From the NCBI GenBank assembly GCA_037445555.1, contig JBBIKG010000009.1:8894-72893 (forward strand): DNA of 64,000 nt, read 5' to 3'. Positions within the stretch are counted from its first letter, which is position 1; every line of letters starts with the position of its first letter. Of this stretch, positions 9,710-60,545 are shown piece by piece. A model generated the notes under the pieces. That model worked only from the letters and a program-made list of their open reading frames with translations. It ran no database searches and was not told where the DNA came from. Both the position numbers and the translations under genes were made by a program. The DNA comes from Lentimicrobiaceae bacterium (GTDB lineage: Bacteria > Bacteroidota > Bacteroidia > Bacteroidales > JAAYJT01).

Positions 9710-9720
9710 ATTGTGCAGGT

Positions 9721-10570: not shown

Positions 10571-10682
10571 TGACTAATTGTCAGGTTTTGCGTATCTTTA
10601 CAGCAACTTGTCGGGATAATGACCTTTGGCATCTTTTATGATCGGGGACAGGCAATTCAATCACATATAAAAATATATACAT

Positions 10683-48074: not shown

Positions 48075-48176
48075 GACCGAATTTTCACTAAGCTAAATAT
48101 CCATCCTTTCTCTTTGGTACCCGTTGCAGGAAATCAACGTAGAAGATCAGCAATAAACCTACCGTGGTCTAGAAAA

Positions 48177-49604
48177 TCATTCCTTTTGCCTGAGTTCAAA
48201 TTTTATTTCGCTGATTATTTCCGGGATAGATTCTTCTAGGTAGTCCAACAATTCGAGTATTTTTCCTGCTTTGTATTTGTTTTGCATAACCCGACGAGCT
48301 GACTCAACAATCTTGTTTTTAAGCTGTTCGCGTGGTTGCTTGTCTTCCATGAACTGGGCAACCTCCGTGAACCAAAACAGAATAGGCATGTATACTGAGG
48401 TGCCGATGATTTTTTTCTCTTTTTCGGTCAGATTGTATCGTTTTGCCAGCCAAAGCAACTTAGCGTATTTAGATGCGCTTATCAACGCTTGGGCATAAGC
48501 CGAGAAAAACAGATGCCACCGGGTTTCAAATATTTCTTTCTTATAAGCCTCAAAAAATGTAGTGGCATAGCTGACGGCGTTTTTTGCCTTTCCGTTGTAA
48601 ATGAGCGTACGAATATAGAAACTTACGAAACCGATCTTATTGTAGTAGCTGCTGGTTTTTTTTAGTTCCGGCATCGACTCATTCATGAGCGTTAAGGCTT
48701 TGGCGTATTTTTTACTGCGCAGCAATACTCCACACAGGTTGGCAAGGTAAAAAAGGTAGTCGCTGTTTTTCTGCCGTATGGAAAGATATCCGTAATGTTC
48801 GGCCAGGCTCAGTTCGTTCAGCTTGCTGTGCATCATGGCGCGGTTTGAGTAATAGTTGGCCAAAACCCTTTTTGAGTAGAATGCACCGTTCGTAAATTCC
48901 TTATCAAGCGCATTATACAGCGATCTGAGGTTCTCAAATTCCCGGTAGTTGTAAAACAAAAAAGTGAGCCTTACTGCTGCCCGGTAGCGGGTGTACCCGT
49001 CAAGGGTATTGTCATTAAAAGTGTCGAGCAGGAATGCGCTGAAATGGATAGGTTCGGCATCTAGAGTTTCATGTTGCCGGATGATTTCCTCGGCTGCCCT
49101 GTCGAGCTGGTTGTTTATGGCTATGCTGCGCTGGTATGAGCCTTGATGCGCCTGAAGATAGTTACTGGTAATTTTATGATATCTGGTACGGACCCGAATC
49201 AGCAGGAAATCTCTGAAATACTGAAGTAATTCATAAAACTTAAGAAAATAATAATGCGATGGGGTAATCATACGTACGAACGAAATGATCTGTTTTTCTT
49301 CCTCGGGCAGTATCGAATCAGTCATCACCTGCTTTTCGGTAGCCAGCAGCCATTCATAAAATTTATCTACCTCTTCATGGTCCAGGGTTTCAGTAATCCA
49401 ACCTTTTATATATGAATACACGCGCTTATCGATTCCCTGATCGAATGGCAACTGATTTTCAGGATGATGGGAGTTGTGGTGTATGATTTGGAGGATGGCT
49501 CGGTTATTTTCCTTAACAAATCTGCTGCGGCCAAGCAGCAGGTCGGTTTCATGGGGATACAACTTACCTGCAAAATCAACAAAAGCTGTAAGCTTATGTT
49601 TCAT
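48177..49604 (-). CDS. hypothetical all-helical (TPR-like) protein, about 475 aa
   Basis: Long intact ORF, visibly more AT-rich and richer in Lys/Tyr/Phe/Asn than its neighbours, with no catalytic or binding motif recognised. ATG 49628 lies inside the upstream terminator, so ATG 49604 is preferred. Confidence 0.5.
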   Translation of the reverse strand: MKHKLTAFVDFAGKLYPHETDLLLGRSRFVKENNRAILQIIHHNSHHPENQLPFDQGIDKRVYSYIKGWITETLDHEEVDKFYEWLLATEKQVMTDSILPEEEKQIISFVRMITPSHYYFLKFYELLQYFRDFLLIRVRTRYHKITSNYLQAHQGSYQRSIAINNQLDRAAEEIIRQHETLDAEPIHFSAFLLDTFNDNTLDGYTRYRAAVRLTFLFYNYREFENLRSLYNALDKEFTNGAFYSKRVLANYYSNRAMMHSKLNELSLAEHYGYLSIRQKNSDYLFYLANLCGVLLRSKKYAKALTLMNESMPELKKTSSYYNKIGFVSFYIRTLIYNGKAKNAVSYATTFFEAYKKEIFETRWHLFFSAYAQALISASKYAKLLWLAKRYNLTEKEKKIIGTSVYMPILFWFTEVAQFMEDKQPREQLKNKIVESARRVMQNKYKAGKILELLDYLEESIPEIISEIKFELRQKE

Positions 49605-49626
49605 ATTTTTTTGCCATGAAAATAAC

Positions 49627-49654
49627 AAAAAAGGAGGCGTGTCGCAGCCTCCTT
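49627..49654 (-). terminator. rho-independent terminator after the exported hydrolase
   Basis: 8-bp stem AAGGAGGC / GCCTCCTT with an 8-nt loop. On the minus strand it runs into TTTTTTGTTATTTT. Confidence 0.72.
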
Positions 49655-49678
49655 TTCAAAAGAATTATAAGTTTATGG

Positions 49679-50644
49679 CTACTCGAGAAATGTTTTCACT
49701 TCGCTGTTAAACACCTCGGGTTTTTCGAACATCATAAAATGCCCGCACTTGGGCACCATAATCAGCTTGCTCCCTCTAATGAGCGATGCTCCATGCTCCG
49801 CCACCTTACGGGTGGTGCCCGGATTAAGATATCTATTGGGGATTAGCATATCGTTTTCGCCAAAAAAGATCAAGGTTGGCTTATCGAGGCCGGGCAGTTT
49901 TTCGAGTACAGGCTCATCCACCATGCCGGCTACTGATCTCGATACAGTAAGGCAATACGCATCAAAATCGCTGGCAGTGCGCATAGCGATGCGATCTTCA
50001 ATCATGAATGCTGCGTCTTTCGGCATGCGGAAAAAATTGCTGGCCAGATTGGTTTCGATGGCATCCACCGGTGTAAGGCGCACCATGTTTGGAAACATCA
50101 CCTCCTTGAACCAGTTTTTTTGGCCGGGATGAAAAGCCTCAAATCCTGCCGGATCCACAAGTATCAGTCGTTTGACCAAGTCGGGTTTTTCGAGGGCGAG
50201 CACCAATGCAATCTGCCCGCCCATTGAGTGGCCGGCCAGGTTGACCTGACCAAGGTTTAACTGAGCTATTAGCTCGGAAATAACCGAAGCATAAAACGAC
50301 ATCAACCCGCTATGCGGATTTTTTGATGATTTTCCGTATCCCGGCAAATCAACAGCAATCACCCTGTACGCTTTGCTCAGTTCGCTGATGTTTTTCTTCC
50401 AGGCAGGCATGTAACTTCCCAAACCATGTATCATTATAATGGTTTCATCTCCTTTTCCCTGGTCAGTGTAGGCCAGTGTGATGTCGTTGCCAAGCCGGGC
50501 ATATTTTACCGGGAATCCGTAATCCATCTCGTTCATCGACGTCAGCTTCGGGAGGTTTTTGTATGGGGTGCATGCCATTGCTGACAGCAGAATTATGAGT
50601 GCTGTTATTTTAATAGATTGAATTGTTTTCATGGTTCGTTGCAT
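49679..50644 (-). CDS. exported (probably lipidated) alpha/beta-hydrolase
   Basis: Signal peptide ...ALIILLSAMAC, oxyanion-hole IMIHGLGS, nucleophile elbow GHSMGG and a late His (CGHFMMFE). 321 aa. Confidence 0.8.
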   Translation of the reverse strand: MQRTMKTIQSIKITALIILLSAMACTPYKNLPKLTSMNEMDYGFPVKYARLGNDITLAYTDQGKGDETIIMIHGLGSYMPAWKKNISELSKAYRVIAVDLPGYGKSSKNPHSGLMSFYASVISELIAQLNLGQVNLAGHSMGGQIALVLALEKPDLVKRLILVDPAGFEAFHPGQKNWFKEVMFPNMVRLTPVDAIETNLASNFFRMPKDAAFMIEDRIAMRTASDFDAYCLTVSRSVAGMVDEPVLEKLPGLDKPTLIFFGENDMLIPNRYLNPGTTRKVAEHGASLIRGSKLIMVPKCGHFMMFEKPEVFNSEVKTFLE

Positions 50645-50653
50645 TTCAGGTCA

Positions 50654-52270
50654 TTAAAACATCAGCCATTTGTATACGAGAAAAGTCGTGTAGGGATACA
50701 CAGGGCGTTCCATCATGTTTCCGTTCACCGGATATCCTCTGCTGTTATCCCTGCTGTCGTAGAATTTTCCAAGCCAAAGGTAGGCTCCGTGAAGTTCGAG
50801 ACTCATAAAAGGACCGAAATTATAGCTAAGCGCGGCATTAAGCTCGGCACCCATGAAACGCCCTCCGCCATTGGGCGCCAGTGGACTGGAGGCAACTGCC
50901 AGGCCTGTTTTTGCGTTGATCCTGTGAGGAATAATATCGTAAGCTAAATTGGCAGTACCACCCAACAGGCCATAGCCCATATTTGACAGGTCCGAAATGG
51001 CCGGAGTATAGCGATTGACTACGTTTGCATGCGGAAATAGCAGATAACCGCCGGTTCCGACGAAAATGGTCGTAGGCATGCCCCAGTAATTACCGGTCAC
51101 AACGCCGGTATATTTGTTGTCGTCAAGACCATATTTGTCAGGCGAGGCAAAAATGAAATCCGCTGAAAAATAGTCGTTCAGCGTACGTCCATAACGATAG
51201 GCAGCCCTGATGTTGGCTCCCACTCCTGCTATATCAGCAGCTTTCTCGTAAGTGCCTTTCACATTTTTTCGTGCAGAACCGAGATTAACATTCACGAAAC
51301 CGGTAAGCTGAAAGGGGTCCAGCCAGAAGTCGGGATTGCGGCTGACAGTAGCTCCCAACCAAACAATATCGGCCCGATATTCACGCTGAAGCGGAAACAC
51401 ATATGCTCCGTTGTAAGTGGCTAGCAAACTTGTCAGCCCCTGACTGAAAACAGATACACCACCCTGGCCTTTGCCGCGGTCACGCACATAATACAACGAG
51501 GCTCCGGCATTCCAAAGCATACTGAGTTTTCTGTGATACACAAGTTCGGCCAGTGTCACATCATCATCAATCTCGGTATTGTTCTCATACAGGATGTAAT
51601 ACCCAGCCTTTGCTTTTTGCACATCGCCATCATAGCGGGCAGTGATGCCCACGGCGTCCGTGCCCCAATAGGCCAGCCTGTAGCCTGTAGTAGTCATCTT
51701 GTCGAACATGGTGCGATAGGGATTGTAAGGAGTGTCGAACAGTCGCTGTAACCCCAAATTAATGGCAAAATCCTTGGCAGGTATCAGTTCCAGTTCTATG
51801 TTCTGGGTCTGGATGTTCACGTTATCGGCATTGATGGCAGCTCCTTTGTTTCCGCCTATACCATAGTTTTGATCGCCCCAGGTCCAGTCAATTTCAAATG
51901 AAGCTCTGAGTAACGCCTTACCATTGAATAATTTTGGCTGGTAAATGAAAAAAGGGATGATCCGCTGTTCCACATAATTTGATACCATGGTGTCGGATGT
52001 GGCAGATGAGTTTCCTCCAAACAACCTCCCTACCAACTGCCCGTTGAAAAGGCTGGCTGAGGGGTATACATTCGTTCTCACCCCCTGGTTAATGAAGAAC
52101 GCCAGAAACTGGAACTCACGGTTCGCTCTGACATTGTATGGCAGGTCATGCGAAAATAACGTAAACCTGTTTCCGGCAGAGTACCCTTTATCCTCTCCGG
52201 TTTGGGCAATGACCGAAAGACCCACCATGCTCATCAGGAGGACAGCCGATAGATACAGTATTTTTTTCAT
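50654..52270 (-). CDS. outer-membrane beta-barrel protein, family not assigned
   Basis: Signal peptide ...LSVIAQ, pervasive alternating hydrophobic/aromatic beta-strand pattern, and the C-terminal ...LVYKWLMF (terminal Phe, an OMP signature). 538 aa. Confidence 0.55.
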   Translation of the reverse strand: MKKILYLSAVLLMSMVGLSVIAQTGEDKGYSAGNRFTLFSHDLPYNVRANREFQFLAFFINQGVRTNVYPSASLFNGQLVGRLFGGNSSATSDTMVSNYVEQRIIPFFIYQPKLFNGKALLRASFEIDWTWGDQNYGIGGNKGAAINADNVNIQTQNIELELIPAKDFAINLGLQRLFDTPYNPYRTMFDKMTTTGYRLAYWGTDAVGITARYDGDVQKAKAGYYILYENNTEIDDDVTLAELVYHRKLSMLWNAGASLYYVRDRGKGQGGVSVFSQGLTSLLATYNGAYVFPLQREYRADIVWLGATVSRNPDFWLDPFQLTGFVNVNLGSARKNVKGTYEKAADIAGVGANIRAAYRYGRTLNDYFSADFIFASPDKYGLDDNKYTGVVTGNYWGMPTTIFVGTGGYLLFPHANVVNRYTPAISDLSNMGYGLLGGTANLAYDIIPHRINAKTGLAVASSPLAPNGGGRFMGAELNAALSYNFGPFMSLELHGAYLWLGKFYDSRDNSRGYPVNGNMMERPVYPYTTFLVYKWLMF

Positions 52271-52287
52271 ATTCTATTGAGTTTAAT

Positions 52288-52329
52288 TGAAAAGGCAGAG
52301 CCATTCTTTCAACTGAATCGGCTCTGCCT
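52288..52329 (-). terminator. intercistronic hairpin (partial terminator/attenuator?) between the lipoprotein and barrel genes
   Basis: 10-bp stem AGGCAGAGCC / GGCTCTGCCT with a 17-nt loop. On the minus strand it is followed by TTTTCAATT. Confidence 0.45.
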
Positions 52330-52367
52330 CATTACATCTCTGATGAATTTTATTGCTAACGTAATTC

Positions 52368-53195
52368 TTAGTTGGTGCGTACAAATTTCTGGATATTGAT
52401 GGTGCCCAGTGTCCCCCCGTTTGAACTGCCAAAGCCTCCGGCTGGTGTTGGAGGAGTATTTTGAGTACCGGAAGTTTGAACTATTTCGTACCACAATACT
52501 TCCGGATTGGTCTTAATTTCAAAGATGCCCGCAGCCGTAGCTACATAGGGTTCGGCCTGGTTGATATCAATGGTCCATATATTTCCGACCACAGATTTAT
52601 TGATCTGATAGGTGCCTCTAAAGATCAGGTTCGGTGTGGTAGTTGTGTTACCAATGTTGAATTGGTTCACGATGTAGGTGTAGTCCGTTTTGAATTCGGC
52701 GGTGACTTTTGCCACGTTGAAATAGGTAACAAGAAGAGGAGCCACATTGGTTCCTTCACTGAGCCATTTACCCATGATGGCAAGTTCTTTGGTCGCTACG
52801 TTTGATTCAATGGACTGAGCTGCATCCATGGCCGCTCCGTCGGCATCATAAACCGATGTAGCCGAAGCAGGTTTAACCAAAAACTTGCTGTTTTCAGGAA
52901 CCACTGAAGTAATGGTAAGGGTGATTAGTGCTGTGTTGGTTCCGGCAGTATGTGTTACAATATAGGTAAACACTACGCCGGCAGGTGCTGTAACAGTAAG
53001 ATTGGAAGCCGATAACCCGCCGGTTTTGTTGGCACTGGCGTACACGTCCTCGGTAAAGAGTACTGTAAGGGTTTTGTTGTCTGCCGACAATGTAGCTGAC
53101 TTGAATTTCGGTGACTGATTTTCTTCAGTGCATGAAGAAAACCCAAGAACAAGAGCCATTAGAATGAAAAGTGGAAATAAAGGAATACGTTTCAT
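52368..53195 (-). CDS. lipoprotein with Ig-like N-domain and lipocalin-like C-domain
   Basis: Lipobox LGFSSC followed by acidic TEEN. The N-terminal half is Thr/Ala-rich beta strands. The C-terminal half has a GKWLSEG...GTYQI...WTIDI...GIFEI...LWYEIV pattern typical of lipocalin-like domains. Confidence 0.6.
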   Translation of the reverse strand: MKRIPLFPLFILMALVLGFSSCTEENQSPKFKSATLSADNKTLTVLFTEDVYASANKTGGLSASNLTVTAPAGVVFTYIVTHTAGTNTALITLTITSVVPENSKFLVKPASATSVYDADGAAMDAAQSIESNVATKELAIMGKWLSEGTNVAPLLVTYFNVAKVTAEFKTDYTYIVNQFNIGNTTTTPNLIFRGTYQINKSVVGNIWTIDINQAEPYVATAAGIFEIKTNPEVLWYEIVQTSGTQNTPPTPAGGFGSSNGGTLGTINIQKFVRTN

Positions 53196-53372
53196 AAAGT
53201 TAAGGGTTTAAGTGATTATCGTTTAAAGAATTAAAGATACATAACAATTACTGGATAGTGGCCTATGGGCAGCAATATTTTCAGGATTGACTTAATTGAT
53301 TTTTACAATAAGATAAATCTGTAACTAATTGATAATGAATTCTTAGGGTTGTGTATAAATACTATTGACTTG

Positions 53373-54407
53373 CTATCCTCCCCATCTTATTACATTTGCA
53401 CCCCAGGCGTATCCTATGCCGGCAGCCACCATCGATACCACCGTGCCTTCGGCCACCAACTTCTGTTGCACTGCCAGGTGAAGTGAAAGAATGGGGTCAA
53501 TCTGACCCAGGTGCCCATAGTGTTCAAGATAGATGGATTGATCTGCGCTAAGGCCTAGCTCGGTGACAAAACTTTGATACATCGAACGTTTAAAGTGGAG
53601 AGCAGCCAGGTATCCCAGCCTGTCTCTCGATATCCCTGATTTGATGAATGCCTTTTCAATACAGGTCATCCAGTTGTTCATCGAGACAAGGTTCAGGCGG
53701 CTTTTCATGTGTTTCTCATCAAATAATCGCAAAGACTTATATGCCAGGTGAACATTTTCAGCGTTGATAGGTTTCTCTGTACCGCCGTACTCTACCCCGG
53801 CATCGCGGGCCATCGTTCCATCTGTGATAATATGTGTGCCAAATAAAAGGTTCTTACCATGGTCTCTTTTAAGCAGGATGGCGCCTCCCCCTGCACCTAG
53901 GTTATACATAAAAGAAATGGAACTGTCGGTATAGTCGATAAAATCACCGTTACGATACCCCCCGGCAATCATTACTGTCTTGATTTCAGGGTCGGACAAC
54001 ATCATGTCTTTGGCTATTTTCATAGCGGCAACGGCAGAGCAGCAACGCTGCTGCAGGTCAATAGCCCAGGCATTGTCAGCCCCCAACCGCTGTTGGATAT
54101 ATATACCCGAGGTCGTCAGCGGATATTCTTTCCATTCTTCCCCGATGCAAAGTATCAGGTCGATTTCAGAAGGCTTCATGCCGCTGTTGCGCAGGCAATC
54201 AATAGCTGCCAGGGCACCCATTTCCTGCGTGCCGTCACCTGGTCCGGGTATGGCTTTTTCAACGATACCCAGTTTTTGCACAATAGCCTTCTCATCCCAT
54301 TTTCCGTCTGTGGCGTCGGCAATCTGGGCCGCACTCATGCGGGCAGACGGAATATATATTCCCGTAGATATAATCCCTACATTCTGCTGATCATCTGTTG
54401 ATTTCAT
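53373..54407 (-). CDS. KAS III (FabH)-fold protein, non-canonical active site (Cys / His / His)
   Basis: Hand-aligned to E. coli FabH: DLQQRCCSAV at Cys112, AALHFKRSM at His244, and HYGHLGQID at Asn274 (Asn replaced by His). The track start is TTG 54476. ATG 54407 is preferred. Confidence 0.72.
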   Translation of the reverse strand: MKSTDDQQNVGIISTGIYIPSARMSAAQIADATDGKWDEKAIVQKLGIVEKAIPGPGDGTQEMGALAAIDCLRNSGMKPSEIDLILCIGEEWKEYPLTTSGIYIQQRLGADNAWAIDLQQRCCSAVAAMKIAKDMMLSDPEIKTVMIAGGYRNGDFIDYTDSSISFMYNLGAGGGAILLKRDHGKNLLFGTHIITDGTMARDAGVEYGGTEKPINAENVHLAYKSLRLFDEKHMKSRLNLVSMNNWMTCIEKAFIKSGISRDRLGYLAALHFKRSMYQSFVTELGLSADQSIYLEHYGHLGQIDPILSLHLAVQQKLVAEGTVVSMVAAGIGYAWGANVIRWGG

Positions 54408-54423
54408 AACAAAGGATTCAGTA

Positions 54424-55431
54424 TCAGTACACAAATACACTTCCTCCAACGGCCAGCCCTGCCCCTGAAGCCACAAATATCACACGGTCGCCACGTCGTA
54501 TACGGCCTTCGCCCACGGCATGATGAAAGGCCATAGGTACGCATCCCGAACCCGTATAGCCATATTTGTCCATCACAGTAGTGGTTTTGCCCGGATCAGC
54601 GCCTAAAATTTCCATCACCCGTTTGATTACCGAGTGATTAATCTGTGTAAAAATATAGTGGTCAATCTGTTCTTTTTCAAGATGGTACTTCTGAAGAAGC
54701 TTTTCCACTACCATCGGCCAAAGACGTACATTGCGTTCGCCTGGAAGAGGCTTCAGGCTAAGAAGGCCCTGCCTGTTTTCGTCCAGTACCTTGAGGGTTA
54801 CTGGCTCATGTGTGCCTCCGGCGTACACGCCGATAAAGTCATGCTGTGTGCCGTCGGTTAACAATTGACTGCCGATGTAGTAAGAGCCTGAGCCTGTGTT
54901 TCTTTCCAGAACAACGGCTCCTGCGCCATCAGCAAAGATGGAGTAACCAAATGCATCATCTTTCCTCAGATAAGCGGGCATATTATACACACCAACCACC
55001 ACTGCATAGCGAATTGCTTCATCCGTGGCCATTATGCGGGCGACATTATCGAGGGCAATGGTAAAACTGGCACAGGATGCTGACACATCAAACGTCGATG
55101 CCCAGGTTTCCTTTCCCTGAAGCCTGCCCTGCAAAAGGATAGATGTGGCAGGAGTGATGTACTCAGGAGTGTCGGTGGCGACAATGATCAGATTCAGGTC
55201 TTCAGCGTTGATACCTGCATTACGCAAGGCCTGCTCAGCAGCAAAGGTGGCAAAATCTGCTGTGGTTTCATTCAGGTTGCGCAAATGAGCGATGTGCCGC
55301 GAATAGATACCTAGCTTACTTTCGAGTTTGGCGGCATCTATTTCAAGCCCTGTCAGCTGTTGAAGCTCTTTGTTGGGTATAGGGCTTCCTGGAGCGTAAA
55401 TCCCTGATCCTATGATTCTTACTGGTAACAT
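54424..55431 (-). CDS. KAS III (FabH)-fold protein, non-canonical active site (Cys / Thr / Tyr)
   Basis: FDVSASCASF at Cys112, IFADGAGAVVL conserved, IFTQINHSV where FabH has VPHQANLRI, and KYGYTGSGC where FabH has RHGNTSAAS. Confidence 0.75.
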   Translation of the reverse strand: MLPVRIIGSGIYAPGSPIPNKELQQLTGLEIDAAKLESKLGIYSRHIAHLRNLNETTADFATFAAEQALRNAGINAEDLNLIIVATDTPEYITPATSILLQGRLQGKETWASTFDVSASCASFTIALDNVARIMATDEAIRYAVVVGVYNMPAYLRKDDAFGYSIFADGAGAVVLERNTGSGSYYIGSQLLTDGTQHDFIGVYAGGTHEPVTLKVLDENRQGLLSLKPLPGERNVRLWPMVVEKLLQKYHLEKEQIDHYIFTQINHSVIKRVMEILGADPGKTTTVMDKYGYTGSGCVPMAFHHAVGEGRIRRGDRVIFVASGAGLAVGGSVFVY

Positions 55432-55440
55432 ATTTAAATT

Positions 55441-56751
55441 TTACAGATAACCTAGCCTTTGAGCCTGTTCTTTAAGGACATTACGAAAGTCGGGATGAGC
55501 TATGGAGATAAGTGCGAGGGTCCTCTCCTTAATGGTACGTCCTGTAAGGCGAACGCTTCCCCATTCGGTTACAATGTAATCAGTATTGCTGCGGTGCAGG
55601 GTTACGGCGGTTCCCTCAGGCAGCACAGGAACAATTGTCGAGATCTGGCCGTTGCGGGCGGTAGAGCGACAGGCTATAATCGATTTGCCTTGTCCGTCGG
55701 TACCTTCGATGGCACCGGCTGCTGTATCGGTTTGCCCTCCTGTACCCGAGTACTGTTCGGTGCCGATCGATTCGCTGGCTACCTGGCCGGTAAAATCAAT
55801 CATCAGGCAGGTATTGATCGAAACCATTTTCCTGTTTTGTTTGACGACACAGGGGTCATTCACATACTTGCCTCGCAGAAACTCCACCGCCATGTTGTTG
55901 TTGAGCCACTTGTAAAGTTTCTCGCTTCCCATGGCAAACGTACATATGAATTTGTCCTTATGTATAGACTTGTGCTTGTTGGTGATTACACCGGCTTCGT
56001 AAAGCTCCATCATGCTGTCAACAAACATTTCGGTATGTACCCCAAGGTCTTTTTTGTTTTTCAGCGACAGAGCGCAGGCATTCGGTATTTCCCCAATGCC
56101 AAGCTGAATGGTAGATCTGTCTTCCACCAGGTCAGCGATATACTGACCTATGCGCATGGCCGTTTCGTCAGGTGCCGGAGCCGGAAGGGTAGGAGGTGTT
56201 TGCGGGTATTCCACAAAATAATCCACCTCCGAGACATGCACATGGGTGTCGCCAAAGGTGCGCGGCAATTGTTCATTAACCTCCAGAACCACAATGTCTG
56301 CCGCCTCAAGAATGTCTTTTTCATAGGTGATGCCAAGCGAAAGCGAAACATAACCTTTTTCATCCGGAGGGGTACATGTGCCAAAAAACAGGTGGGGATT
56401 GCGTACTTTAAGACGGTCAGTGGCAGCTCGGTGCAACATGTTCGGAACGTATGTCACCGTACCCGTTTTTGCCTTCACAGCCTGACGTGAGCCACCGGCA
56501 TGAAACCAGCTGCACAGCTCGAAATGTCCCCTCATTTCGGGAAGAATGTAGAAATCATAGGGCTTGAGCGTCAGTACCGAGAACACTTTGACATTCTGAA
56601 CTCTTTCTTTAACAATATGAAACCTTGACATGCAACCCTGAGGTTCGCTCGCACATTGGGCTACTATTACATCGCTATCACTTCGTATCAGGCTTATGGC
56701 TTCGTCGATAGTGATAAGTTTACTTTTATAATGCGACTGAAAGGATCTCAT
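55441..56751 (-). CDS. acetyl-CoA hydrolase/transferase-family enzyme (4-hydroxybutyrate / butyryl-CoA:acetate CoA-transferase type)
   Basis: 436 aa with IQLGIGEIPNA, VHTEMF, SINTCLMIDFTGQVASESIG and GTGGQTD blocks. The start overlaps the symporter stop (TAATG). Confidence 0.85.
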   Translation of the reverse strand: MRSFQSHYKSKLITIDEAISLIRSDSDVIVAQCASEPQGCMSRFHIVKERVQNVKVFSVLTLKPYDFYILPEMRGHFELCSWFHAGGSRQAVKAKTGTVTYVPNMLHRAATDRLKVRNPHLFFGTCTPPDEKGYVSLSLGITYEKDILEAADIVVLEVNEQLPRTFGDTHVHVSEVDYFVEYPQTPPTLPAPAPDETAMRIGQYIADLVEDRSTIQLGIGEIPNACALSLKNKKDLGVHTEMFVDSMMELYEAGVITNKHKSIHKDKFICTFAMGSEKLYKWLNNNMAVEFLRGKYVNDPCVVKQNRKMVSINTCLMIDFTGQVASESIGTEQYSGTGGQTDTAAGAIEGTDGQGKSIIACRSTARNGQISTIVPVLPEGTAVTLHRSNTDYIVTEWGSVRLTGRTIKERTLALISIAHPDFRNVLKEQAQRLGYL

Positions 56752-58313
56752 TAGGTTTGATTTTGTTTGTAAGCGGAAATTCGGGTGGTTATCAGATGGA
56801 TAGTCAGGCTTACGGCTACAGAGATGACTATAGCCATCGCTGCTGCCATAGCCGGATTTTGGGTTGATCCTGAAAAATACCTGTCAGCACTGCCCAGACT
56901 TATGGTATTGCCTTTAATCAGCACCGGAAGAATGTAGTAAATGGTAAAATATACTGTCATGGCAGTCAGTGATCCTGCTACCGCTGTAATAATCCTTACA
57001 CTTCTGATGAAGATCCCGAATACGATAGGAATGAAACATATAGAGAAAAATGAATACACTCCGTTTTGAGCAAAAATGGCAACACTTAGATTAGGGCGCA
57101 GCAGCTGCTCGCGCGAAGCCAAAAATGCTGCCAGTGCCATACCCGCTATTACGATTCTGTTGATGAGGATATATTTATTTTCATTGTGGATATGGGCACC
57201 AAATAAAGGCCTGATGATATCGGAGGTTACGGTAGTGCTCAGGCTTTGTATAAGGCCTTCGATGGTGGATAACCCGGCACTTAAAAGGCCCATAATTACT
57301 ATAAGCCCTATAGCGACCGCCATCCAGCCTTGCGAGAATACTTTGATGACATAGGCTGGGATGATTCCATCTACACCAAGCGCCCTGCCATTGGCCATCA
57401 GACCGGGGAATGTTATGCGGGCGTAGAGGCCTGTAACTACCACCGAATAAAACAATGCCTGGATCAGTACTGCTGCGACAAGAAATTTATTGACATCCGC
57501 TTCGCGCTTAAGCAACAGGGACTTGGTGATAATATGAGGCTGGCAGACAACGGCAGCCCCCACAATCATCTGCACCATAATGATTTCGAAAAAACTCCTG
57601 AACAAAGGACTGTTACCGTTTACTGGCTGTGTAAGCATCGGGTCAATAGTCCTGAGTTTGTCAAAAAAGCTCAGAACACCATCCTTCAGATACTCATAGC
57701 CTGAACATAAAAGGATGATGGCAACAGCTACCATTACAAACGCCTGCACGGTATTGGTATAGACCATGGAATTCGCTCCGCCGAACATCATGTAGCTGAA
57801 AACAAATGTAACGACGGCCAGTAATACCCATATCTCGTTCAGATTCAACGCCTGGCTGAGCACTTTGGTGATTGCAACCAGTATCAGCACTATAAATGTC
57901 AACAGTAAGACAGATAGAAAGGCAATGAACAATTTATAGGATTTGCTGTCGTAGCGGCTGCCTATCCATCCGGCCAACGTCATTGCCTTCACGCTGCTTC
58001 CGAATTTCCTGAAACTTTTTGTCAGTACGATCAGTGAAATCAGAGATGCCAGCGGAAAAAACACGCCGAATGACAGCACGGCGCTAAGGCCGTAGTTTGC
58101 AATCAGTCCGGGGTTAATCACAAAGGTGGCGGCGCTGGTCATGGCGGCTGCCAGCGACAGCCCGACAAACCACGGCGAGAAGTTGATCGAGCCCAAAGCG
58201 TAGTCACTGATACTGCGGGTTCTCAATGCTCCTCTGACAACAAAAAACAAGATGGCCGTGGCATAGGCTATAATTAAAATCCATCCGCCGATGACCTGTT
58301 CAGGGGTTGCCAT
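56751..58313 (-). CDS. sodium:solute symporter (SSS) family transporter
   Basis: 520 aa with about 13 TM helices and an SSS-like pattern. The substrate is not assignable. Confidence 0.78.
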   Translation of the reverse strand: MATPEQVIGGWILIIAYATAILFFVVRGALRTRSISDYALGSINFSPWFVGLSLAAAMTSAATFVINPGLIANYGLSAVLSFGVFFPLASLISLIVLTKSFRKFGSSVKAMTLAGWIGSRYDSKSYKLFIAFLSVLLLTFIVLILVAITKVLSQALNLNEIWVLLAVVTFVFSYMMFGGANSMVYTNTVQAFVMVAVAIILLCSGYEYLKDGVLSFFDKLRTIDPMLTQPVNGNSPLFRSFFEIIMVQMIVGAAVVCQPHIITKSLLLKREADVNKFLVAAVLIQALFYSVVVTGLYARITFPGLMANGRALGVDGIIPAYVIKVFSQGWMAVAIGLIVIMGLLSAGLSTIEGLIQSLSTTVTSDIIRPLFGAHIHNENKYILINRIVIAGMALAAFLASREQLLRPNLSVAIFAQNGVYSFFSICFIPIVFGIFIRSVRIITAVAGSLTAMTVYFTIYYILPVLIKGNTISLGSADRYFSGSTQNPAMAAAMAIVISVAVSLTIHLITTRISAYKQNQT

Positions 58314-58370
58314 GTGATTTAGATTTGGTAGCTACAAAGGTCCGCAAATTCAGTTTAAGAAAAGGAGGCG

Positions 58371-59114
58371 CTAAATCGTTACTCCGCCATCCACACTCAG
58401 CACTGCACCGTTCACAAAAGCTGCTTCGCGGCTGGCCAGGTAAAGGTACGCAGCTGCTATTTCCTCGGGCTTTCCAAGACGCCCTGCCGGTGTTTTGTCT
58501 TTCATCGCTTGCAGAATATTTTCTGGCATCTTTGCCACCATTTCGGTTTCAATAAAACCGGGAGCCACGGCGTTGACGGTGATTCCTTTTCGTCCCAGTT
58601 CCTTTGCCAGGGTTTTGGTCATTCCGATCATTCCAGCCTTGGCAGCTACGTAGTTGGTTTGTCCAAAATTGCCATACAGCGCTACTACAGAAGAGGTATT
58701 GATGATCCTGCCGAAGTTTTTTTCCAACATATATCCTGCCACAACCCGTGTGCAGTTAAACACTCCGGTCAGGTCTACATCGATCACCTGCTGCCATAGG
58801 TCGGGGGTCATTTTTTTCAGAGTGCTGTCGCGGGTGATACCAGCATTGTTGATCAAAATATCGATTCGGCCGTATTTTGCGTAAACCTCAGCCGCAGCTT
58901 TTTCAACCATGTCGTACTTGGCTGTATTTACTCTCATGAATGCTGCTTCCATGCCTTGATGTAACAGTTCAGTGGCCAATGCCTGTCCCTTATCTTCATT
59001 AAGGTCCCAGATGACGACTTTAGCCCCTTCAGAGGCAAATAATTGCACGGCGGCTTTACCTATGCCATCGGCTCCGCCCGTGATGATGGCTACTTGTTCC
59101 AAGAGTTTTTTCAT
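58371..59114 (-). CDS. short-chain dehydrogenase/reductase, FabG / acetoacetyl-CoA reductase type
   Basis: TGGADGIGKA cofactor motif, NNAGI, and catalytic S...YVAAKAG. 247 aa. Confidence 0.88.
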   Translation of the reverse strand: MKKLLEQVAIITGGADGIGKAAVQLFASEGAKVVIWDLNEDKGQALATELLHQGMEAAFMRVNTAKYDMVEKAAAEVYAKYGRIDILINNAGITRDSTLKKMTPDLWQQVIDVDLTGVFNCTRVVAGYMLEKNFGRIINTSSVVALYGNFGQTNYVAAKAGMIGMTKTLAKELGRKGITVNAVAPGFIETEMVAKMPENILQAMKDKTPAGRLGKPEEIAAAYLYLASREAAFVNGAVLSVDGGVTI

Positions 59115-59123
59115 AGCTGTGAT

Positions 59124-60305
59124 TTATATTTGTTTGATTATCATGGATATACCTTGTCCGCCACCTATACAGAGGGTGGCCAGGCCGGTTTTTGCATGCC
59201 GGCGTTTCATTTCATAGAGCAAGGTAGTCAGGATGCGCGCCCCTGAGGCTCCGATAGGATGTCCGAGGGCTATGGCACCACCGTTTACGTTCACAATATC
59301 AGGGTTGATACCGAGGTCTTTTACCACAGCTATTGATTGCGCTGCAAACGCCTCATTAGCTTCAATCAGGTCGAGGTCCTCGATGGTTATTCCGGTTTTC
59401 TTCAACACTTTTCGTGTGGCAGGTACCGGGCCATAGCCCATGATGGCGTGGTTGAGACCCACATAGGCGCCGCCTGCAAATACTGCCATAGGCTCGATGC
59501 CAAGTTGCACGGCCTTCTCCCTGCTCATCACTACCACCATGCTGGCACCATCGTTGATTCCTGAAGCATTGCCTGCAGTCACAGTTCCGTCTTTTTTAAA
59601 AGCGGGTTTAAGTGCTGCCAGCTTGTCAAGGGTGAGTCCGTGACGCGGAAATTCATCGGCGTCCACAACCAAAGGCTCTCCCTTTCGCTGGGGGATCATC
59701 ACAGGTACAATTTCATCTTTGAATTTGCCTTCTTTCTGGGCTTTTTCGGTTTTGTGCTGACTATTCAGGGCAAATTCATCCTGCTCGATCCTTGAAATTC
59801 TCCACCTCTCGGCAATATTTTCGGCTGTGATGCCCATATGTACATTGTCGAAAACATCGGTAAGCCCGTCATAGATCATGCTGTCAATCAGGGTGGCATC
59901 TCCCATTCGATATCCCTGTCTGGCTTTTGTAAGCAGGTAGGGTGAGTTGCTCATGCTTTCGGTACCTCCTGCCAGCATAATTTCTGCCTCACCAAGCTGA
60001 ATGAGGTTAGCCGCCATCAGCACCGAACGCAGGCCCGATCCGCAAAGCTGGTTTATAGTGGTGGCAGGAACTTCTTCAGGGATGCCTGAATATACTGCAA
60101 CCTGCCTGGCAATATTTTGCCCGAGACCCGCAGAAAGGATATTGCCTATGATCACTTCATCAATCTGACCGGGGGCAATAGTTGCCCTGCGCATAGCTTC
60201 TGTTGCAGCAATTTTTCCAAGATCAACGGCACTGAGTGACGCTAATGAGCCGCCAAAGTTGCCGATAGCTGTCCTTACCGCCGATGCAATTACAACCTCT
60301 TTCAT
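59124..60305 (-). CDS. acetyl-CoA C-acetyltransferase (thiolase II)
   Basis: [10 protein letters not shown] (acyl Cys), [24 protein letters not shown] and [11 protein letters not shown]. 393 aa. Confidence 0.95.
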
Positions 60306-60545
60306 ATGTTAATAGGTTAGTGAATGTATTGACCGTAGTTTAAAGCTACAAAATAAAGCCAGGCACCCTCCATATCAAATACTCAGCGATTTAATTATCA
60401 GGTCGACATAAAAAGGAAAGAAGTTTAGCTTATGTTCTAAATATCAGAATATAAGTATATTAAATACATAATTGCCTTGTCAGACCGTAATTTAGAACTG
60501 AATCAAGACATACTTTACTAATTTTGTGGCATGTTTGGTAGTACT

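What the first reader, a model, noticed from the sequence alone, without database searches (positions are those of the whole stretch)
53373..60305. Six-gene operon couples a ketone-body-type CoA module to two non-canonical FabH-fold proteins
Seen: thiolase, SDR, Na+/solute symporter, CoA-transferase and two KAS III-like ORFs are all on the minus strand. Spacers are 9, 57, -1 (TAATG overlap), 9 and about 16 nt, so co-transcription is very likely. Established: thiolase + 3-oxoacyl reductase/3-hydroxyacyl dehydrogenase + family-I/4-hydroxybutyrate-type CoA-transferase + a carboxylate symporter is what one expects for import, CoA activation and thiolysis of a short 3-oxo- or 3-hydroxy-acid (acetoacetate / 3-hydroxybutyrate type). 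Run in reverse, it makes 3-hydroxybutyryl-CoA. No pathway of that kind that I know needs FabH-fold enzymes. The window also contains no ACP, malonyl-CoA:ACP transacylase, carboxylase, crotonase, acyl-CoA dehydrogenase or PhaC near the locus. Inference: this is either a catabolic route with a FabH-fold acyl-transfer or retro-Claisen step, or a compact biosynthetic cluster that elaborates acetoacetyl- or 3-hydroxybutyryl-CoA. I cannot map it to an established system.
Basis: partly seen in the sequence, partly recalled or inferred. Interest (0 to 1): 0.65.

Follow-up and report, generated by a model that had tools for sequence, protein, structure and literature searches.

The report
Polyester-breakdown operon with odd FabH pair
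This gene cluster, conserved in many anaerobic bacteria, most likely imports and burns 3-hydroxybutyrate units released from the bacterial storage polyester PHB, and it always carries one or two unstudied relatives of the fatty-acid enzyme FabH whose reaction is still unknown.

Summary
Six tightly spaced minus-strand genes encode a thiolase, an SDR, an SSF symporter, a 4-hydroxybutyrate-type CoA-transferase and two FabH-fold proteins, here called KASA and KASB.

- **KASA** has Cys/Thr/Tyr in place of the Cys/His/Asn triad. **KASB** has Cys/His/His. These residues are invariant in 56 and 82 orthologues.
- **A normal FabH** lies on another contig of the same genome.
- **The conserved unit is larger than reported.** About 50 Bacteroidales genomes keep the same ten-gene array. 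After the six genes come a surface lipoprotein, an AlgE/OprD-like outer-membrane channel, a lipoprotein alpha/beta-hydrolase and a TPR protein.
- **Firmicutes rebuild the core.** They combine KASB, CoA-transferase, SDR and hydrolases with a Liv-type ABC importer and a sigma-54 activator.
- **The substrate clue.** In Firmicutes the hydrolase next to KASB is often a Bacillus-type intracellular short-chain PHA depolymerase, scoring above NCBIfam's cut-off. A PhaJ-like (R)-hydratase is sometimes present.

Best reading: an accessory catabolic locus for (R)-3-hydroxybutyrate and its oligo-esters from PHB.

The KAS step is unassigned. My inference is a covalent Cys acyl transfer, possibly CoA-dependent ester cleavage. 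No database or paper that I searched names this system.

The parts
59124..60305 (-). Acetyl-CoA C-acetyltransferase (thiolase, 393 aa), BktB/PhaA-like. First gene of the operon.
   Evidence: Thiolase_N and Thiolase_C at E 8e-107 and 7e-49. TIGR01930 scores 485 bits against a cut-off of 240. The BktB and PhaA models are the closest but stay below their cut-offs. 67-73% identical and syntenic in Bacteroidales loci.
58371..59114 (-). FabG/PhaB-type SDR (247 aa). Read as an (R)-3-hydroxyacyl-CoA dehydrogenase / acetoacetyl-CoA reductase.
   Evidence: adh_short_C2 at E 2e-66. The FabG equivalog NF004198 scores 300 bits against a cut-off of 296. The acetoacetyl-CoA reductase model TIGR01829 scores 272 against 302. 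Best PDB hits are 4nbu (a Bacillus FabG-type reductase, E 1.5e-85) and the (3R)-hydroxyacyl-CoA dehydrogenase 2et6. Orthologues at 53-59% identity sit in the Firmicute clusters.
56751..58313 (-). Sodium:solute symporter family transporter (520 aa). Presumed inner-membrane importer of the acid.
   Evidence: PF00474 at E 3.6e-30. It is below the cut-offs of all named SSF subfamilies. Its stop overlaps the CoA-transferase start, TAATG. Firmicute versions carry a Liv-type ABC importer instead.
55441..56751 (-). Acetyl-CoA hydrolase/transferase-family CoA-transferase (436 aa), 4-hydroxybutyrate CoA-transferase-like.
   Evidence: PF13336 and PF02550. The best PDB hits are 4-hydroxybutyrate CoA-transferases, E 1e-102. 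The butyryl-CoA:acetate equivalog TIGR03948 scores only 255 bits against a cut-off of 675. It stands next to KASB in 20 of 23 Firmicute loci.
54424..55431 (-). KASA: FabH-fold protein (335 aa) with Cys/Thr/Tyr in place of Cys/His/Asn.
   Evidence: ACP_syn_III and ACP_syn_III_C. The FabH models score below their cut-offs, 188 against 249 and 167 against 292. Cys, Thr and Tyr are invariant in 56 of 56 orthologues. The same type occurs in Brassicibacter and Thermoanaerobacter loci. Public databases name it only 'ketoacyl-ACP synthase III'.
53373..54407 (-). KASB: FabH-fold protein (344 aa) of the PRK06840 family, with Cys/His/His plus an invariant EEWKEY motif. It is the constant, defining gene of the locus type.
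   Evidence: NF005308 scores 438 bits against a cut-off of 315. The residues are invariant in 82 of 82 orthologues. It is 66-74% identical in Bacteroidales and Firmicutes. Only 92 clusters at 50% identity reach E<=1e-30 among 1.84 billion representatives.
52368..53195 (-). Surface-type lipoprotein (275 aa). First gene of the envelope module, 177 nt after KASB.
   Evidence: Signal peptide and lipobox ...GFSSC. No Pfam or NCBIfam hit in this protein. The Paludibacter orthologue hits Big_2. Syntenic in Bacteroidales loci at 36-68% identity.
50654..52270 (-). Outer-membrane beta-barrel channel (538 aa), AlgE/OprD(Occ)-like.
   Evidence: No profile hit. The AlphaFold model has pLDDT 72.7 and pTM 0.72 and is a barrel. 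The best PDB folds are AlgE (E 6e-16), then OprD/Occ channels. Found in 53 loci at 44-76% identity.
49679..50644 (-). Exported (lipoprotein) alpha/beta-hydrolase (321 aa) with a GHSMGG nucleophile elbow. Presumed esterase.
   Evidence: Abhydrolase_1 at E 1.7e-30. Signal peptide and Cys are visible. It is related to, but below the cut-offs of, the PhaZ (97 bits against 300), AcoC, HsaD and PcaD models. PDB hits are MhpC and BphD, plus a PHB depolymerase, 8ynv, at E 2e-16. It follows the barrel by a median of 12 nt in 51 loci.
49628..49657 (-). Intrinsic terminator: 11-bp stem followed by a T run. It ends the nine-gene array.
   Evidence: Strongest terminator-like site in 47800-60700. No comparable site follows KASB.
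48177..49628 (-). All-helical TPR-like cytoplasmic protein (483 aa), linked by synteny. Possibly a sensor or regulator. Function unknown.
   Evidence: No profile hits. AlphaFold pLDDT is 90.7 and the model is all helix. It has only weak fold matches to Rap/NprR-type TPR proteins, E >= 2.7e-3. It is present in 39 loci. It usually lies downstream, and lies upstream on the opposite strand in L007, L029 and L040.
60306..60530 (.). Upstream non-coding region with the presumed promoter of the operon.
   Evidence: 225 nt between the thiolase ATG and the divergent YggS-like gene. A near-match to the Bacteroidetes -7 motif, TAGCTTTA, lies at 60348. A second near-match, TATCTTTA, lies at 53239 ahead of the lipoprotein gene. 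These are pattern matches only.

Best explanation
This is an accessory catabolic locus for short (R)-3-hydroxyalkanoates. The likely substrates are 3-hydroxybutyrate and its oligo-esters released from the storage polyester PHB.

**Proposed route in this Bacteroidales genome**
1. A surface lipoprotein and an AlgE/OprD-like channel capture carboxylate-bearing oligomers or monomers and admit them.
2. The lipoprotein alpha/beta-hydrolase trims esters in the periplasm.
3. The SSF symporter imports the acid.
4. The 4-hydroxybutyrate-type CoA-transferase makes the CoA thioester from acetyl-CoA.
5. The FabG/PhaB-type SDR oxidises (R)-3-hydroxybutyryl-CoA to acetoacetyl-CoA.
6. The thiolase yields two acetyl-CoA.

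**What is shown and what is inferred**
- Shown: the gene families and their conserved linkage.
- Inferred from context: the substrate and the direction of the pathway.

**The FabH-fold proteins**
KASB is the constant member and KASA is an optional partner. They are not fatty-acid initiators. Both keep the acyl-accepting Cys under strict conservation.

My committed guess is that KASB carries a 3-hydroxyacyl group on that Cys and passes it between an oxygen ester and CoA. This would be CoA-dependent ('thiolytic') cleavage of 3-hydroxybutyrate oligomers, alone or in relay with the adjacent hydrolase. It would save the ester-bond energy as a thioester. I put this at about 20% for the specific reaction. 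KASA, where present, probably forms a heterodimer with KASB and reshapes its pocket.
For: **Conserved linkage**
- The same ten-gene array occurs in about 50 Bacteroidales genomes of many families.

**Independent re-assemblies of the same parts in other lineages**
- Tissierellia, Neobacillus and Clostridium: sigma-54 activator, Liv-type ABC importer, alpha/beta-hydrolases, KASB, CoA-transferase and SDR.
- Bacillus infantis: ABC importer, KASB subfamily 2 overlapping a hydrolase, SDR and thiolase.
- Thermoanaerobacter: thiolase, sigma-54 activator, MaoC/PhaJ-like hydratase, ABC importer, a hydrolase overlapping KASB, CoA-transferase, a secreted lipase, a PhaZ-type hydrolase and KASA.

**PHB link**
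- The hydrolase next to KASB reaches NCBIfam's equivalog cut-off (300 bits) for 'intracellular short-chain-length PHA depolymerase'. It scores 418 bits in Tissierellia, 429 in B. infantis and 356 in Thermoanaerobacter.
- That hydrolase family is present in 12 of 23 Firmicute loci.
- A PhaJ-like 138-aa hydratase is present in 6 of those 23 loci and in the Thermoanaerobacter locus L087.

**(R)-specific chemistry**
- The SDR is of the FabG/PhaB type. Its best solved relatives are a Bacillus FabG-type reductase and a (3R)-hydroxyacyl-CoA dehydrogenase.

**Exogenous substrate**
- Importers are present in every version.
- The barrel is like carboxylate- and polyanion-specific channels.
- The genome has no PhaC_N hit.

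**Accessory nature**
- The KASB family is found in 9 of 151 genomes of the order. It is absent from a same-genus genome and from 14 control genomes.

**The KAS proteins are functional and not housekeeping**
- The substituted residues are invariant.
- A canonical Cys/His/Asn FabH lies elsewhere in the genome.

**KASB does not replace the thiolase**
- Both occur together in the Bacteroidales, B. infantis and Thermoanaerobacter versions.

**Precedents and expression**
- CoA-dependent PHB cleavage by PhaZ1 of Ralstonia is cited in PMC3430594.
- Biogas metatranscriptome contigs lie on the genes of a close relative and bridge two junctions.
Against: - No experiment supports any of this.
- The window's own hydrolase reaches only 97 bits on the PhaZ model, against a cut-off of 300. 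It scores about as well on the AcoC, HsaD and PcaD models.
- No recognisable extracellular PHB depolymerase is in the window.
- The textbook PHB route needs no FabH-fold enzyme, so the KAS step is pure inference.
- The SDR also just passes a FabG equivalog cut-off, 300 against 296.
- The CoA-transferase is closest to 4-hydroxybutyrate enzymes.
- Distant KASB relatives (31-33% identity) on haloarchaeal megaplasmids sit beside an ABC importer and an acyl-CoA dehydrogenase, with no hydrolase or SDR. The wider family is therefore not tied to esters.
- The Glu of the EEWKEY motif is not kept in all distant members.
- Metatranscriptome contigs can contain DNA.
Confidence: 0.55

Rival explanations
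1. The locus takes up plain ketone-body-type monomers (acetoacetate, 3-hydroxybutyrate, 3-hydroxyvalerate). KASB/KASA act as a second, thiolase-like C-C enzyme that does non-decarboxylative Claisen or retro-Claisen chemistry on a 3-oxoacyl-CoA the ordinary thiolase handles poorly. The hydrolases are incidental thioesterases or esterases.
For: - Transporter, CoA-transferase, SDR and thiolase are the minimal monomer route.
- KASB has an invariant acidic EEWKEY motif. By eye it sits about 31-32 residues before the Cys, as the catalytic Glu does in HMG-CoA synthases. KASB also hits HMGCS models weakly.
- OleA shows that FabH-fold enzymes with a Glu base can do non-decarboxylative Claisen chemistry (my own knowledge).
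- Most Firmicute clusters have no thiolase gene.
Against: - KASB co-occurs with a bona fide thiolase in three independent architectures.
- Hydrolases are constant partners, often with overlapping reading frames.
- PhaZ-type and secreted esterases make no sense for free monomers.
- The Glu is not conserved in distant family members.
Confidence: 0.15
2. The substrate is not PHB-derived. It is another ester, lactone or cyclic beta-diketone, for example a phloroglucinol-type or lactone compound. The alpha/beta-hydrolases open a ring or cleave a C-C bond as MhpC, BphD and PcaD do. The product is CoA-activated. KASB then cleaves a 3,5-dioxoacyl-CoA-type intermediate.
For: - The window hydrolase and the commonest Firmicute hydrolase are closest to meta-cleavage C-C hydrolases and 3-oxoadipate enol-lactonase.
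- Liv-type binding proteins and PAS/sigma-54 activators also serve aromatic-acid pathways (my own knowledge).
- Carriers include Sedimentibacter hydroxybenzoicus.
Against: - All those hydrolase scores are far below the family cut-offs, whereas the PhaZ equivalog is passed in three lineages.
- No reductase, cyclohydrolase or BKACE genes of the known phloroglucinol route are present in the profiled neighbourhoods of the window and relatives.
- The PhaJ-like hydratase and the PhaB-like SDR point to (R)-3-hydroxyacyl-CoA.
Confidence: 0.1
3. The cluster is biosynthetic. Thiolase and SDR make (R)-3-hydroxybutyryl-CoA. The KAS pair condenses or transfers it, in an Ole-like or type-III-PKS-like way, to build a small lipid or signal that the envelope module exports.
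For: - The KASIII-like + alpha/beta-hydrolase + SDR set resembles OleA/OleB/OleD.
- KASA hits OleA structures at E about 1e-18.
- AlgE, the best fold match of the barrel, is an exporter.
Against: - Every version carries an importer, either an SSF symporter or a binding-protein-dependent ABC system.
- The regulators are sigma-54/PAS or MalT-type catabolic activators.
- No ACP, OleC, carboxylase or malonyl-CoA supply is present.
- The decarboxylation residues are missing in both KAS proteins.
- Depolymerase-type hydrolases are adjacent.
Confidence: 0.07
4. KASA and/or KASB are catalytically dead scaffolds or regulators. Only the transporter, CoA-transferase, SDR and thiolase do chemistry.
For: - The canonical His/Asn dyad is lost in both proteins.
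- PqsB is a precedent for an inactive FabH-fold subunit (my own knowledge).
Against: - The nucleophilic Cys and the replacement residues are invariant in 56 and 82 orthologues across two phyla.
- KASB is the most constant gene of all versions of the locus.
Confidence: 0.03

Closest known systems
Classical PHB mobilisation and utilisation route (PhaZ depolymerase, 3HB-oligomer hydrolase, 3-hydroxybutyrate dehydrogenase or CoA-transferase, beta-ketothiolase), as in Ralstonia, Paracoccus and Bacillus
   Same: Ester hydrolases are present, and in Firmicute relatives they include a true Bacillus-type PhaZ equivalog. The route also shares CoA activation, a PhaB-type (R)-specific dehydrogenase and a BktB/PhaA-like thiolase.
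   Different: The genes are clustered with importers and, in Bacteroidales, with an outer-membrane channel module. The route runs through CoA esters via a 4-hydroxybutyrate-type CoA-transferase rather than Bdh plus SCOT. It contains FabH-fold proteins that have no place in the known route. The carrier here has no PhaC_N hit.
E. coli ato system (AtoSC / atoDAEB) and ketone-body utilisation
   Same: It combines a short-chain acid transporter, an acetate-dependent CoA-transferase and a thiolase. The activator is sigma-54-dependent, as in the Firmicute versions of this locus.
   Different: The CoA-transferase family differs: family I AtoDA against the AcetylCoA_hydro family. The ato system has no SDR, no esterases and no FabH-fold proteins.
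PqsBC of Pseudomonas aeruginosa (heterodimer of two FabH-fold proteins)
   Same: Two adjacent FabH-fold genes lack the full Cys/His/Asn triad, and they act outside fatty-acid synthesis on CoA-linked substrates.
   Different: PqsB has lost the Cys, while both KASA and KASB keep it. Sequence similarity is marginal, at E 6e-9 and 4.5e-4. KASB works without KASA in most Firmicutes. The pathway context is entirely different.
OleABCD olefin / beta-lactone pathway
   Same: It combines a FabH-fold enzyme (OleA), an alpha/beta-hydrolase (OleB) and an SDR (OleD). OleA shows non-decarboxylative chemistry with a Glu base.
   Different: This locus has no OleC. It carries importers and catabolic regulators and acts on short-chain substrates. 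OleA keeps Cys/His/Asn.
HMG-CoA synthase / PhlA branch of the thiolase superfamily
   Same: KASB has weak profile hits to it. It also has an acidic residue at the spacing where HMGCS has its catalytic Glu, and it keeps the Cys and a His.
   Different: The scores are far below the cut-offs, 62 against 244 bits. KASB has His instead of Asn at the third position. No DUF35 or thiolase-complex partners are present.
Thiolytic PHB cleavage by PhaZ1 (PhaZa1) of Ralstonia eutropha
   Same: It is the same net reaction that I propose for KASB: an ester bond of PHB or an oligomer plus CoA gives 3-hydroxybutyryl-CoA.
   Different: PhaZ1 is not a FabH-fold enzyme; to my knowledge it is related to the PhaC synthases. 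For KASB the reaction is only a hypothesis.
Bacteroidetes polysaccharide utilisation loci (SusC/SusD type)
   Same: Both use a surface lipoprotein, an outer-membrane transporter and an exported hydrolase that are co-localised with cytoplasmic catabolic genes.
   Different: No SusC/SusD pair lies between the operon's upstream region and corA. The channel is an AlgE/OprD-like barrel, and the hydrolase is an esterase-type alpha/beta-hydrolase.

Membership tests
FabH / KAS III (beta-ketoacyl-ACP synthase III, TIGR00747) | Cys-His-Asn catalytic triad | tested here: not met
   KASA has Cys/Thr/Tyr. KASB has Cys/His (shifted by one position)/His. Invariant in 56 and 82 orthologues.
FabH / KAS III (beta-ketoacyl-ACP synthase III, TIGR00747) | Score at or above the curated family cut-off | tested here: not met
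   TIGR00747 gives KASA 167 bits and KASB 92 bits against a cut-off of 292.
FabH / KAS III (beta-ketoacyl-ACP synthase III, TIGR00747) | It is the genome's fatty-acid initiator (sole copy, fab context, ACP partner) | tested here: not met
   A canonical FabH with NAGCSGF, PHQAN and GNT motifs lies on another contig. No ACP gene lies in or beside the operon.
NCBIfam NF005308 (PRK06840, named only '3-oxoacyl-ACP synthase') | Full-length match above the curated cut-off | tested here: met
   KASB scores 438.4 bits against a cut-off of 315 and covers 335 of 339 profile positions. The family has no characterised member that I could find.
PqsBC-type FabH-fold heterodimer | One subunit has lost the nucleophilic Cys (PqsB) while the other keeps a Cys-His dyad (PqsC) | tested here: not met
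   Both KASA and KASB keep the Cys in all orthologues.
PqsBC-type FabH-fold heterodimer | The two proteins form an obligate heterodimer | not testable with these tools
   The genes are adjacent, with a median gap of 19 nt in 54 loci. However, KASB occurs without KASA in 20 of 23 Firmicute loci. No multimer prediction tool was available.
HMG-CoA synthase | Glu-Cys-His catalytic set and a family-level profile score | tested here: not met
   NF003274 gives 62-69 bits against a cut-off of 244. The Glu-like position is assigned only by eye and is not conserved in distant KASB relatives.
Thiolase (acetyl-CoA C-acyltransferase, TIGR01930) | Thiolase N and C domains, and a score above the cut-off | tested here: met
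   PF00108 and PF02803 hit. TIGR01930 scores 485 bits against a cut-off of 240. This applies to the first gene only.
Intracellular short-chain-length PHA depolymerase (NF050089) | Full-length match above the 300-bit cut-off | tested here: not met
   The window hydrolase scores 97 bits, on its N-terminal part only. The feature is met in relatives' hydrolases next to KASB, at 418, 429 and 356 bits.
Butyryl-CoA:acetate CoA-transferase (TIGR03948) / 4-hydroxybutyrate CoA-transferase | Equivalog-level score, and substrate specificity | tested here: inconclusive
   The family domains are present. TIGR03948 scores 255 bits against a cut-off of 675. The best PDB relatives are 4-hydroxybutyrate CoA-transferases at E 1e-102. 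Sequence cannot give the substrate.
OleABCD | OleA with Cys/His/Asn, plus OleC (a beta-lactone synthetase of the ANL family) in the cluster | tested here: not met
   The triad is absent. No ANL-family gene is in the window locus or in the loci whose neighbours I profiled.
Bacteroidetes PUL | Adjacent SusC-like TonB-dependent transporter and SusD-like lipoprotein | tested here: not met
   The only outer-membrane protein of the locus is a 538-aa AlgE/OprD-like barrel. The lipoprotein is 275 aa and has no SusD hit.

The most novel reading that the evidence does not exclude
KASB, with KASA as an optional partner, founds a new functional class in the thiolase superfamily. It would be an 'ester thiolase' that uses its active-site Cys to cleave the oxygen-ester bonds of 3-hydroxybutyrate oligomers with CoA. 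It would release 3-hydroxybutyryl-CoA directly, which lets fermenting anaerobes conserve the ester-bond energy of scavenged PHB. By my own count this gives up to about 50% more ATP per monomer than hydrolysis. The Bacteroidales version would then be the first 'polyester utilisation locus' with its own non-Sus outer-membrane uptake module.
Probability: 0.2. Interest if true: 0.8.

Novelty: new variant of a known kind. Interest (0 to 1): 0.6.

Why it matters
PHB and related polyesters are among the most abundant bacterial storage compounds and are a leading biodegradable plastic. How strict anaerobes such as Bacteroidales, Tissierellia and Thermoanaerobacter consume them is poorly known.

This locus gives a concrete, widespread and testable gene set for that process, including its uptake machinery.

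It also exposes two large, strictly conserved FabH-fold families. KASB alone gave more than 4,800 database hits. These proteins are annotated everywhere as 'ketoacyl-ACP synthase III', yet they lack FabH's catalytic triad and sit outside any fatty-acid synthesis context. Correcting that annotation matters for metabolic reconstructions of digesters, sediments and guts. Finding the actual reaction could add a new reaction type to the thiolase superfamily.

Tried and rejected
**Literature.** Eight full-text searches found no paper that describes this cluster or these proteins. The searches covered KAS III-like plus CoA-transferase, Cys-His-His FabH-like enzymes, PRK06840, anaerobic PHB degradation in Bacteroidales, 3HB-oligomer hydrolases and thiolysis.

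**RNA evidence for this genome.** The window comes from a subsurface-metagenome MAG and only DNA runs hold it. I used biogas metatranscriptomes on a relative instead.

**B. infantis paper (PMC10468675).** Its phaZ is a different gene of 1.77 kb. The paper therefore shows only that the species degrades PHB.

**Fold search of the 483-aa protein.** It gave only weak generic TPR matches.

**Readings considered and rejected**
- Lysine, ornithine or aminobutyrate fermentation, the known phloroglucinol route and the mevalonate/HMG-CoA route: their signature enzymes are absent from all the neighbourhoods I profiled.
- KASB as a simple substitute for the thiolase: both co-occur.
- Housekeeping FabH paralogues: the triad is lost, and a true FabH lies elsewhere.
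- PHB mobilisation of the cell's own granules in this genome: there is no PhaC_N hit, and the hydrolase is exported.

**Sigma-70 promoter scan.** It was uninformative. It found 19 sites against 21 expected, and Bacteroidetes use other promoter motifs.

Full report
**1. Observation**

- thiolase, 59124-60305
- SDR, 58371-59114
- SSF symporter, 56751-58313
- CoA-transferase, 55441-56751
- KASA, 54424-55431
- KASB, 53373-54407

The longest frame for KASB begins at a TTG at 54476, inside KASA. The ATG at 54407 lies 16 nt after the KASA stop and matches the N-termini of the homologues. The spacers are 9, 57, -1 (TAATG), 9 and 16 nt.

- Thiolase: TIGR01930 scores 485 bits against a cut-off of 240, and the protein is BktB/PhaA-like.
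- SDR: FabG/PhaB-type.
- Transporter: SSF family.
- CoA-transferase: AcetylCoA_hydro family.
- Two ACP_syn_III proteins.

**2. The two FabH-fold proteins**

I aligned both proteins to a solved FabH by HMMER. I also aligned them, together with their orthologues, to this genome's own FabH.
- KASA keeps the nucleophilic Cys. It has Thr for the catalytic His and Tyr for the Asn, in 56 of 56 orthologues.
- KASB keeps the Cys. It has a His one position after the FabH His, a Lys where the Asn of FabH's HQAN motif stands, and His for the catalytic Asn. It also has an invariant EEWKEY motif. All of this holds in 82 of 82 orthologues.

Both score far below the FabH cut-offs. KASB is a full member of NCBIfam NF005308 (PRK06840), at 438 bits against 315. 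That family carries only the generic name '3-oxoacyl-ACP synthase'. A canonical Cys/His/Asn FabH is encoded on another contig.

So these are conserved, presumably active enzymes, and they are not fatty-acid initiators.

The KASB family is compact. Only 92 clusters at 50% identity reach E<=1e-30 among 1.84 billion representatives. Yet it is populous, with more than 4,800 hits in the 90%-identity clusters. Distant members keep the Cys, an H-[MF]-K-[RK]-S motif and a G-H motif. The Glu is kept in most but not all.

**3. The conserved unit is larger than six genes**

I ran a genome-collection scan with KASB and then a tblastn census of the window's proteins on the 82 loci held at that point. About 50 Bacteroidales loci show the same order. 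They include Paludibacteraceae, Rikenellaceae, Prevotellaceae, Tenuifilaceae, Salinivirgaceae, Lentimicrobiaceae and Williamwhitmania.

The order is thiolase, SDR, SSF, CoA-transferase, KASA, KASB, lipoprotein, 538-aa protein, alpha/beta-hydrolase and 483-aa protein. This matches window 48177-60305, and the Paludibacter locus shows it too.

Median gaps are 19 nt between KASA and KASB, 171 nt between KASB and the lipoprotein, and 12 nt between the barrel and the hydrolase.

In the window the only strong terminator follows the hydrolase, at 49657-49628. Near-matches to the Bacteroidetes -7 promoter motif precede both the thiolase gene and the lipoprotein gene. The locus may therefore be one or two transcription units.

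What the extra genes encode:
- The 538-aa protein models as a beta-barrel (pLDDT 72.7). Its best solved relatives are AlgE and the OprD/Occ channels. Occ channels are specific for carboxylate-bearing solutes (my own knowledge).
- The hydrolase has a lipoprotein signal and a GHSMGG nucleophile elbow.
- The 483-aa protein is a confident all-helical TPR-like fold with only weak Rap/NprR-like matches.

**4. Versions in other lineages**

I clustered the ORFs of 23 non-Bacteroidales loci by family. They come from Tissierellia, Neobacillus/Bacillus, Clostridium bovifaecis and others. The number of loci that hold each family is:

| Family | Loci (of 23) |
|---|---|
| KASB | 23 |
| CoA-transferase | 20 |
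| PAS/sigma-54 activator | 19 |
| PcaD-like cytoplasmic alpha/beta-hydrolase | 19 |
| LivHM-type permeases | 18 |
| ABC ATPases | 17 |
| SDR orthologue | 15 |
| Binding protein | 13 |
| Small MCP-signal-domain protein | 12 |
| Second hydrolase family (PhaZ type) | 12 |
| 138-aa MaoC-type hydratase | 6 |
| KASA-type protein | 3 |

A more distant KASB subfamily, about 35% identical, tells the same story.
- In Bacillus infantis the order is a MalT-like regulator, a Liv-type ABC importer, KASB overlapping a hydrolase, SDR and thiolase. There is no CoA-transferase.
- In Thermoanaerobacter thermohydrosulfuricus the order is thiolase, sigma-54 activator, MaoC hydratase, ABC importer, a hydrolase overlapping KASB, CoA-transferase, a secreted Lipase_2 protein, a second hydrolase, a KASA-type protein with the same Cys/Thr/Tyr, and an MCP-signal protein.

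For the close family they do not.

**5. What the substrate probably is**

The second hydrolase family passes NCBIfam's equivalog cut-off (300 bits) for 'intracellular short-chain-length polyhydroxyalkanoate depolymerase'. It scores 418 bits in Tissierellia, 429 in B. infantis and 356 in Thermoanaerobacter.

Other clues point the same way:
- The MaoC-type hydratase is of the (R)-specific PhaJ kind.
- The SDR is of the FabG/PhaB type, which makes or uses (R)-3-hydroxyacyl thioesters (established knowledge). Its nearest solved relatives are a Bacillus FabG-type reductase, 4nbu, and a (3R)-hydroxyacyl-CoA dehydrogenase. From memory, 4nbu was described as NADH-dependent and active on acetoacetyl-CoA.
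- The thiolase is BktB/PhaA-like.
- B. infantis is a reported PHB degrader.

Together these clues indicate (R)-3-hydroxybutyrate or 3-hydroxyvalerate units delivered as esters, that is, PHB-derived monomers and oligomers.

This genome has no PhaC_N hit, and its hydrolase is exported. Here the substrate would therefore be scavenged from outside the cell.

The locus is accessory. The KASB family occurs in 9 of 151 genomes of the order, is absent from a same-genus genome and is absent from 14 control genomes.

KASB identity between Firmicutes and Bacteroidales is 66-70%, the same as within Bacteroidales. The neighbouring CoA-transferase drops to 43-49% across the phyla. In a quick tree the Firmicute KASBs form one clade on a very short branch among the Bacteroidales sequences. 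This pattern fits lateral transfer, unusually strong constraint, or both.

**6. Mechanism**

*Shown.* The families, their linkage and the conservation of the odd active sites.

*Inferred.* The route runs as follows:
1. Capture and entry through the lipoprotein and channel.
2. Periplasmic ester trimming.
3. SSF uptake.
4. CoA transfer from acetyl-CoA.
5. NAD-linked oxidation to acetoacetyl-CoA.
6. Thiolysis.

*The KAS step.* The textbook route does not require it. Several facts constrain it:
- KASB always accompanies esterases, often with overlapping frames.
- It co-occurs with a true thiolase, so it is not a substitute for one.
- It needs no ACP.
- It keeps an acyl-accepting Cys but not the decarboxylation dyad.
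- It has conserved basic residues (Lys, and Arg or Lys) beside the catalytic His, which could hold a carboxylate.
- In B. infantis it is the only candidate in the cluster for bringing the substrate onto CoA.

My best guess is CoA-dependent cleavage of 3HB-oligomer esters through a 3-hydroxybutyryl-S-Cys intermediate. This reaction is known for PhaZ1 of Ralstonia but not for this fold. It would raise the ATP yield of fermenters.

KASA has a small residue (Thr or Ser) at the position of FabH Phe87. In FabH that residue reaches into the partner's pocket (my own knowledge). KASA may therefore widen KASB's pocket in a heterodimer.

I give the overall catabolic and PHB reading 0.55. I give the specific KAS reaction about 0.2.

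**7. Expression**

No RNA data exist for this MAG. Biogas-fermenter metatranscriptome contigs, 93-99% alike, lie on the thiolase, SDR, SSF, CoA-transferase, KASA, KASB, lipoprotein and barrel genes of the close relative L009.
- One 311-nt contig, seen in two runs, joins the 3' end of KASA to the 5' end of KASB across a shorter spacer.
- Another contig joins the CoA-transferase to KASA.

This is modest support for expression and co-transcription in situ. Contigs from RNA libraries can contain DNA.

**8. Comparison and novelty**

The transporter, CoA-transferase, SDR and thiolase part works like known PHB or ketone-body utilisation routes and like the ato system.

The FabH-fold pair recalls PqsBC and OleA but fails their defining features, as the membership rows show.

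The envelope module is PUL-like in logic but not SusC/SusD.

Neither NCBIfam (June 2026), the names given by source databases nor eight literature searches name the system.

Distant KASB relatives on haloarchaeal megaplasmids sit after a Liv-type importer and before an acyl-CoA dehydrogenase. The wider family may therefore serve other imported acids.

I class the locus as a new variant of a known kind of system, namely short hydroxy-acid or PHB catabolism. It contains two uncharacterised enzyme families.

Earlier scan notes had flagged the same kind of cluster in other genomes. I treated them as leads and re-derived the points that I use here.

Noticed in passing
window 48177-49628 (-): A 483-aa all-helical TPR-like protein (AlphaFold pLDDT 90.7) has no significant fold or profile match. 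It keeps synteny with the locus in 39 genomes. It usually lies downstream, and lies upstream on the opposite strand in L007, L029 and L040. That pattern suggests a dedicated sensor or regulator. It has weak Rap/NprR-like matches only.
   Followed up: partly
L001 6264-7094; L087 14672-15484; 12 of 23 Firmicute loci: A small soluble protein of about 270 aa consists essentially of an MCP signalling domain. It sits between the sigma-54 activator and the PhaZ-type hydrolase, or at the end of the cluster. It may couple chemotaxis or signalling to the substrate.
   Followed up: no
L009 7289 -> 8784 (read laying joints): One low-support RNA contig (21 letters on its shorter side) joins the end of the SSF gene directly to the start of KASA and skips the CoA-transferase. 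This hints at relatives without that gene at this position. An earlier scan note mentions versions with an AMP-ligase instead.
   Followed up: no
L088 (Halobaculum halobium megaplasmid) 3478-11417: A KASB relative of 31% identity overlaps the last permease gene of a Liv-type ABC importer and is followed by an acyl-CoA dehydrogenase. No hydrolase or SDR is present. Similar hits exist on 11 haloarchaeal plasmids.
   Followed up: partly
KASB across L001-L082: KASB identity across phyla (66-70%) equals that within Bacteroidales, while the adjacent CoA-transferase falls to 43-49%. The Firmicute KASBs form one clade on a very short branch, together with the divergent Bacteroidetes MAG L069. This fits lateral transfer or extreme constraint.
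   Followed up: partly
L087 11413-12624: A secreted 403-aa Lipase_2-family protein sits inside the Thermoanaerobacter version of the cluster. It is a candidate extracellular polyester or oligomer esterase of an anaerobic thermophile.
   Followed up: no
window 60531-62191 (+): A YggS-like PLP-binding protein gene (Ala_racemase_N) and a Na+/Ca2+ exchanger gene overlap by 4 nt, divergent from the operon. They are not conserved next to the locus in relatives.
   Followed up: no
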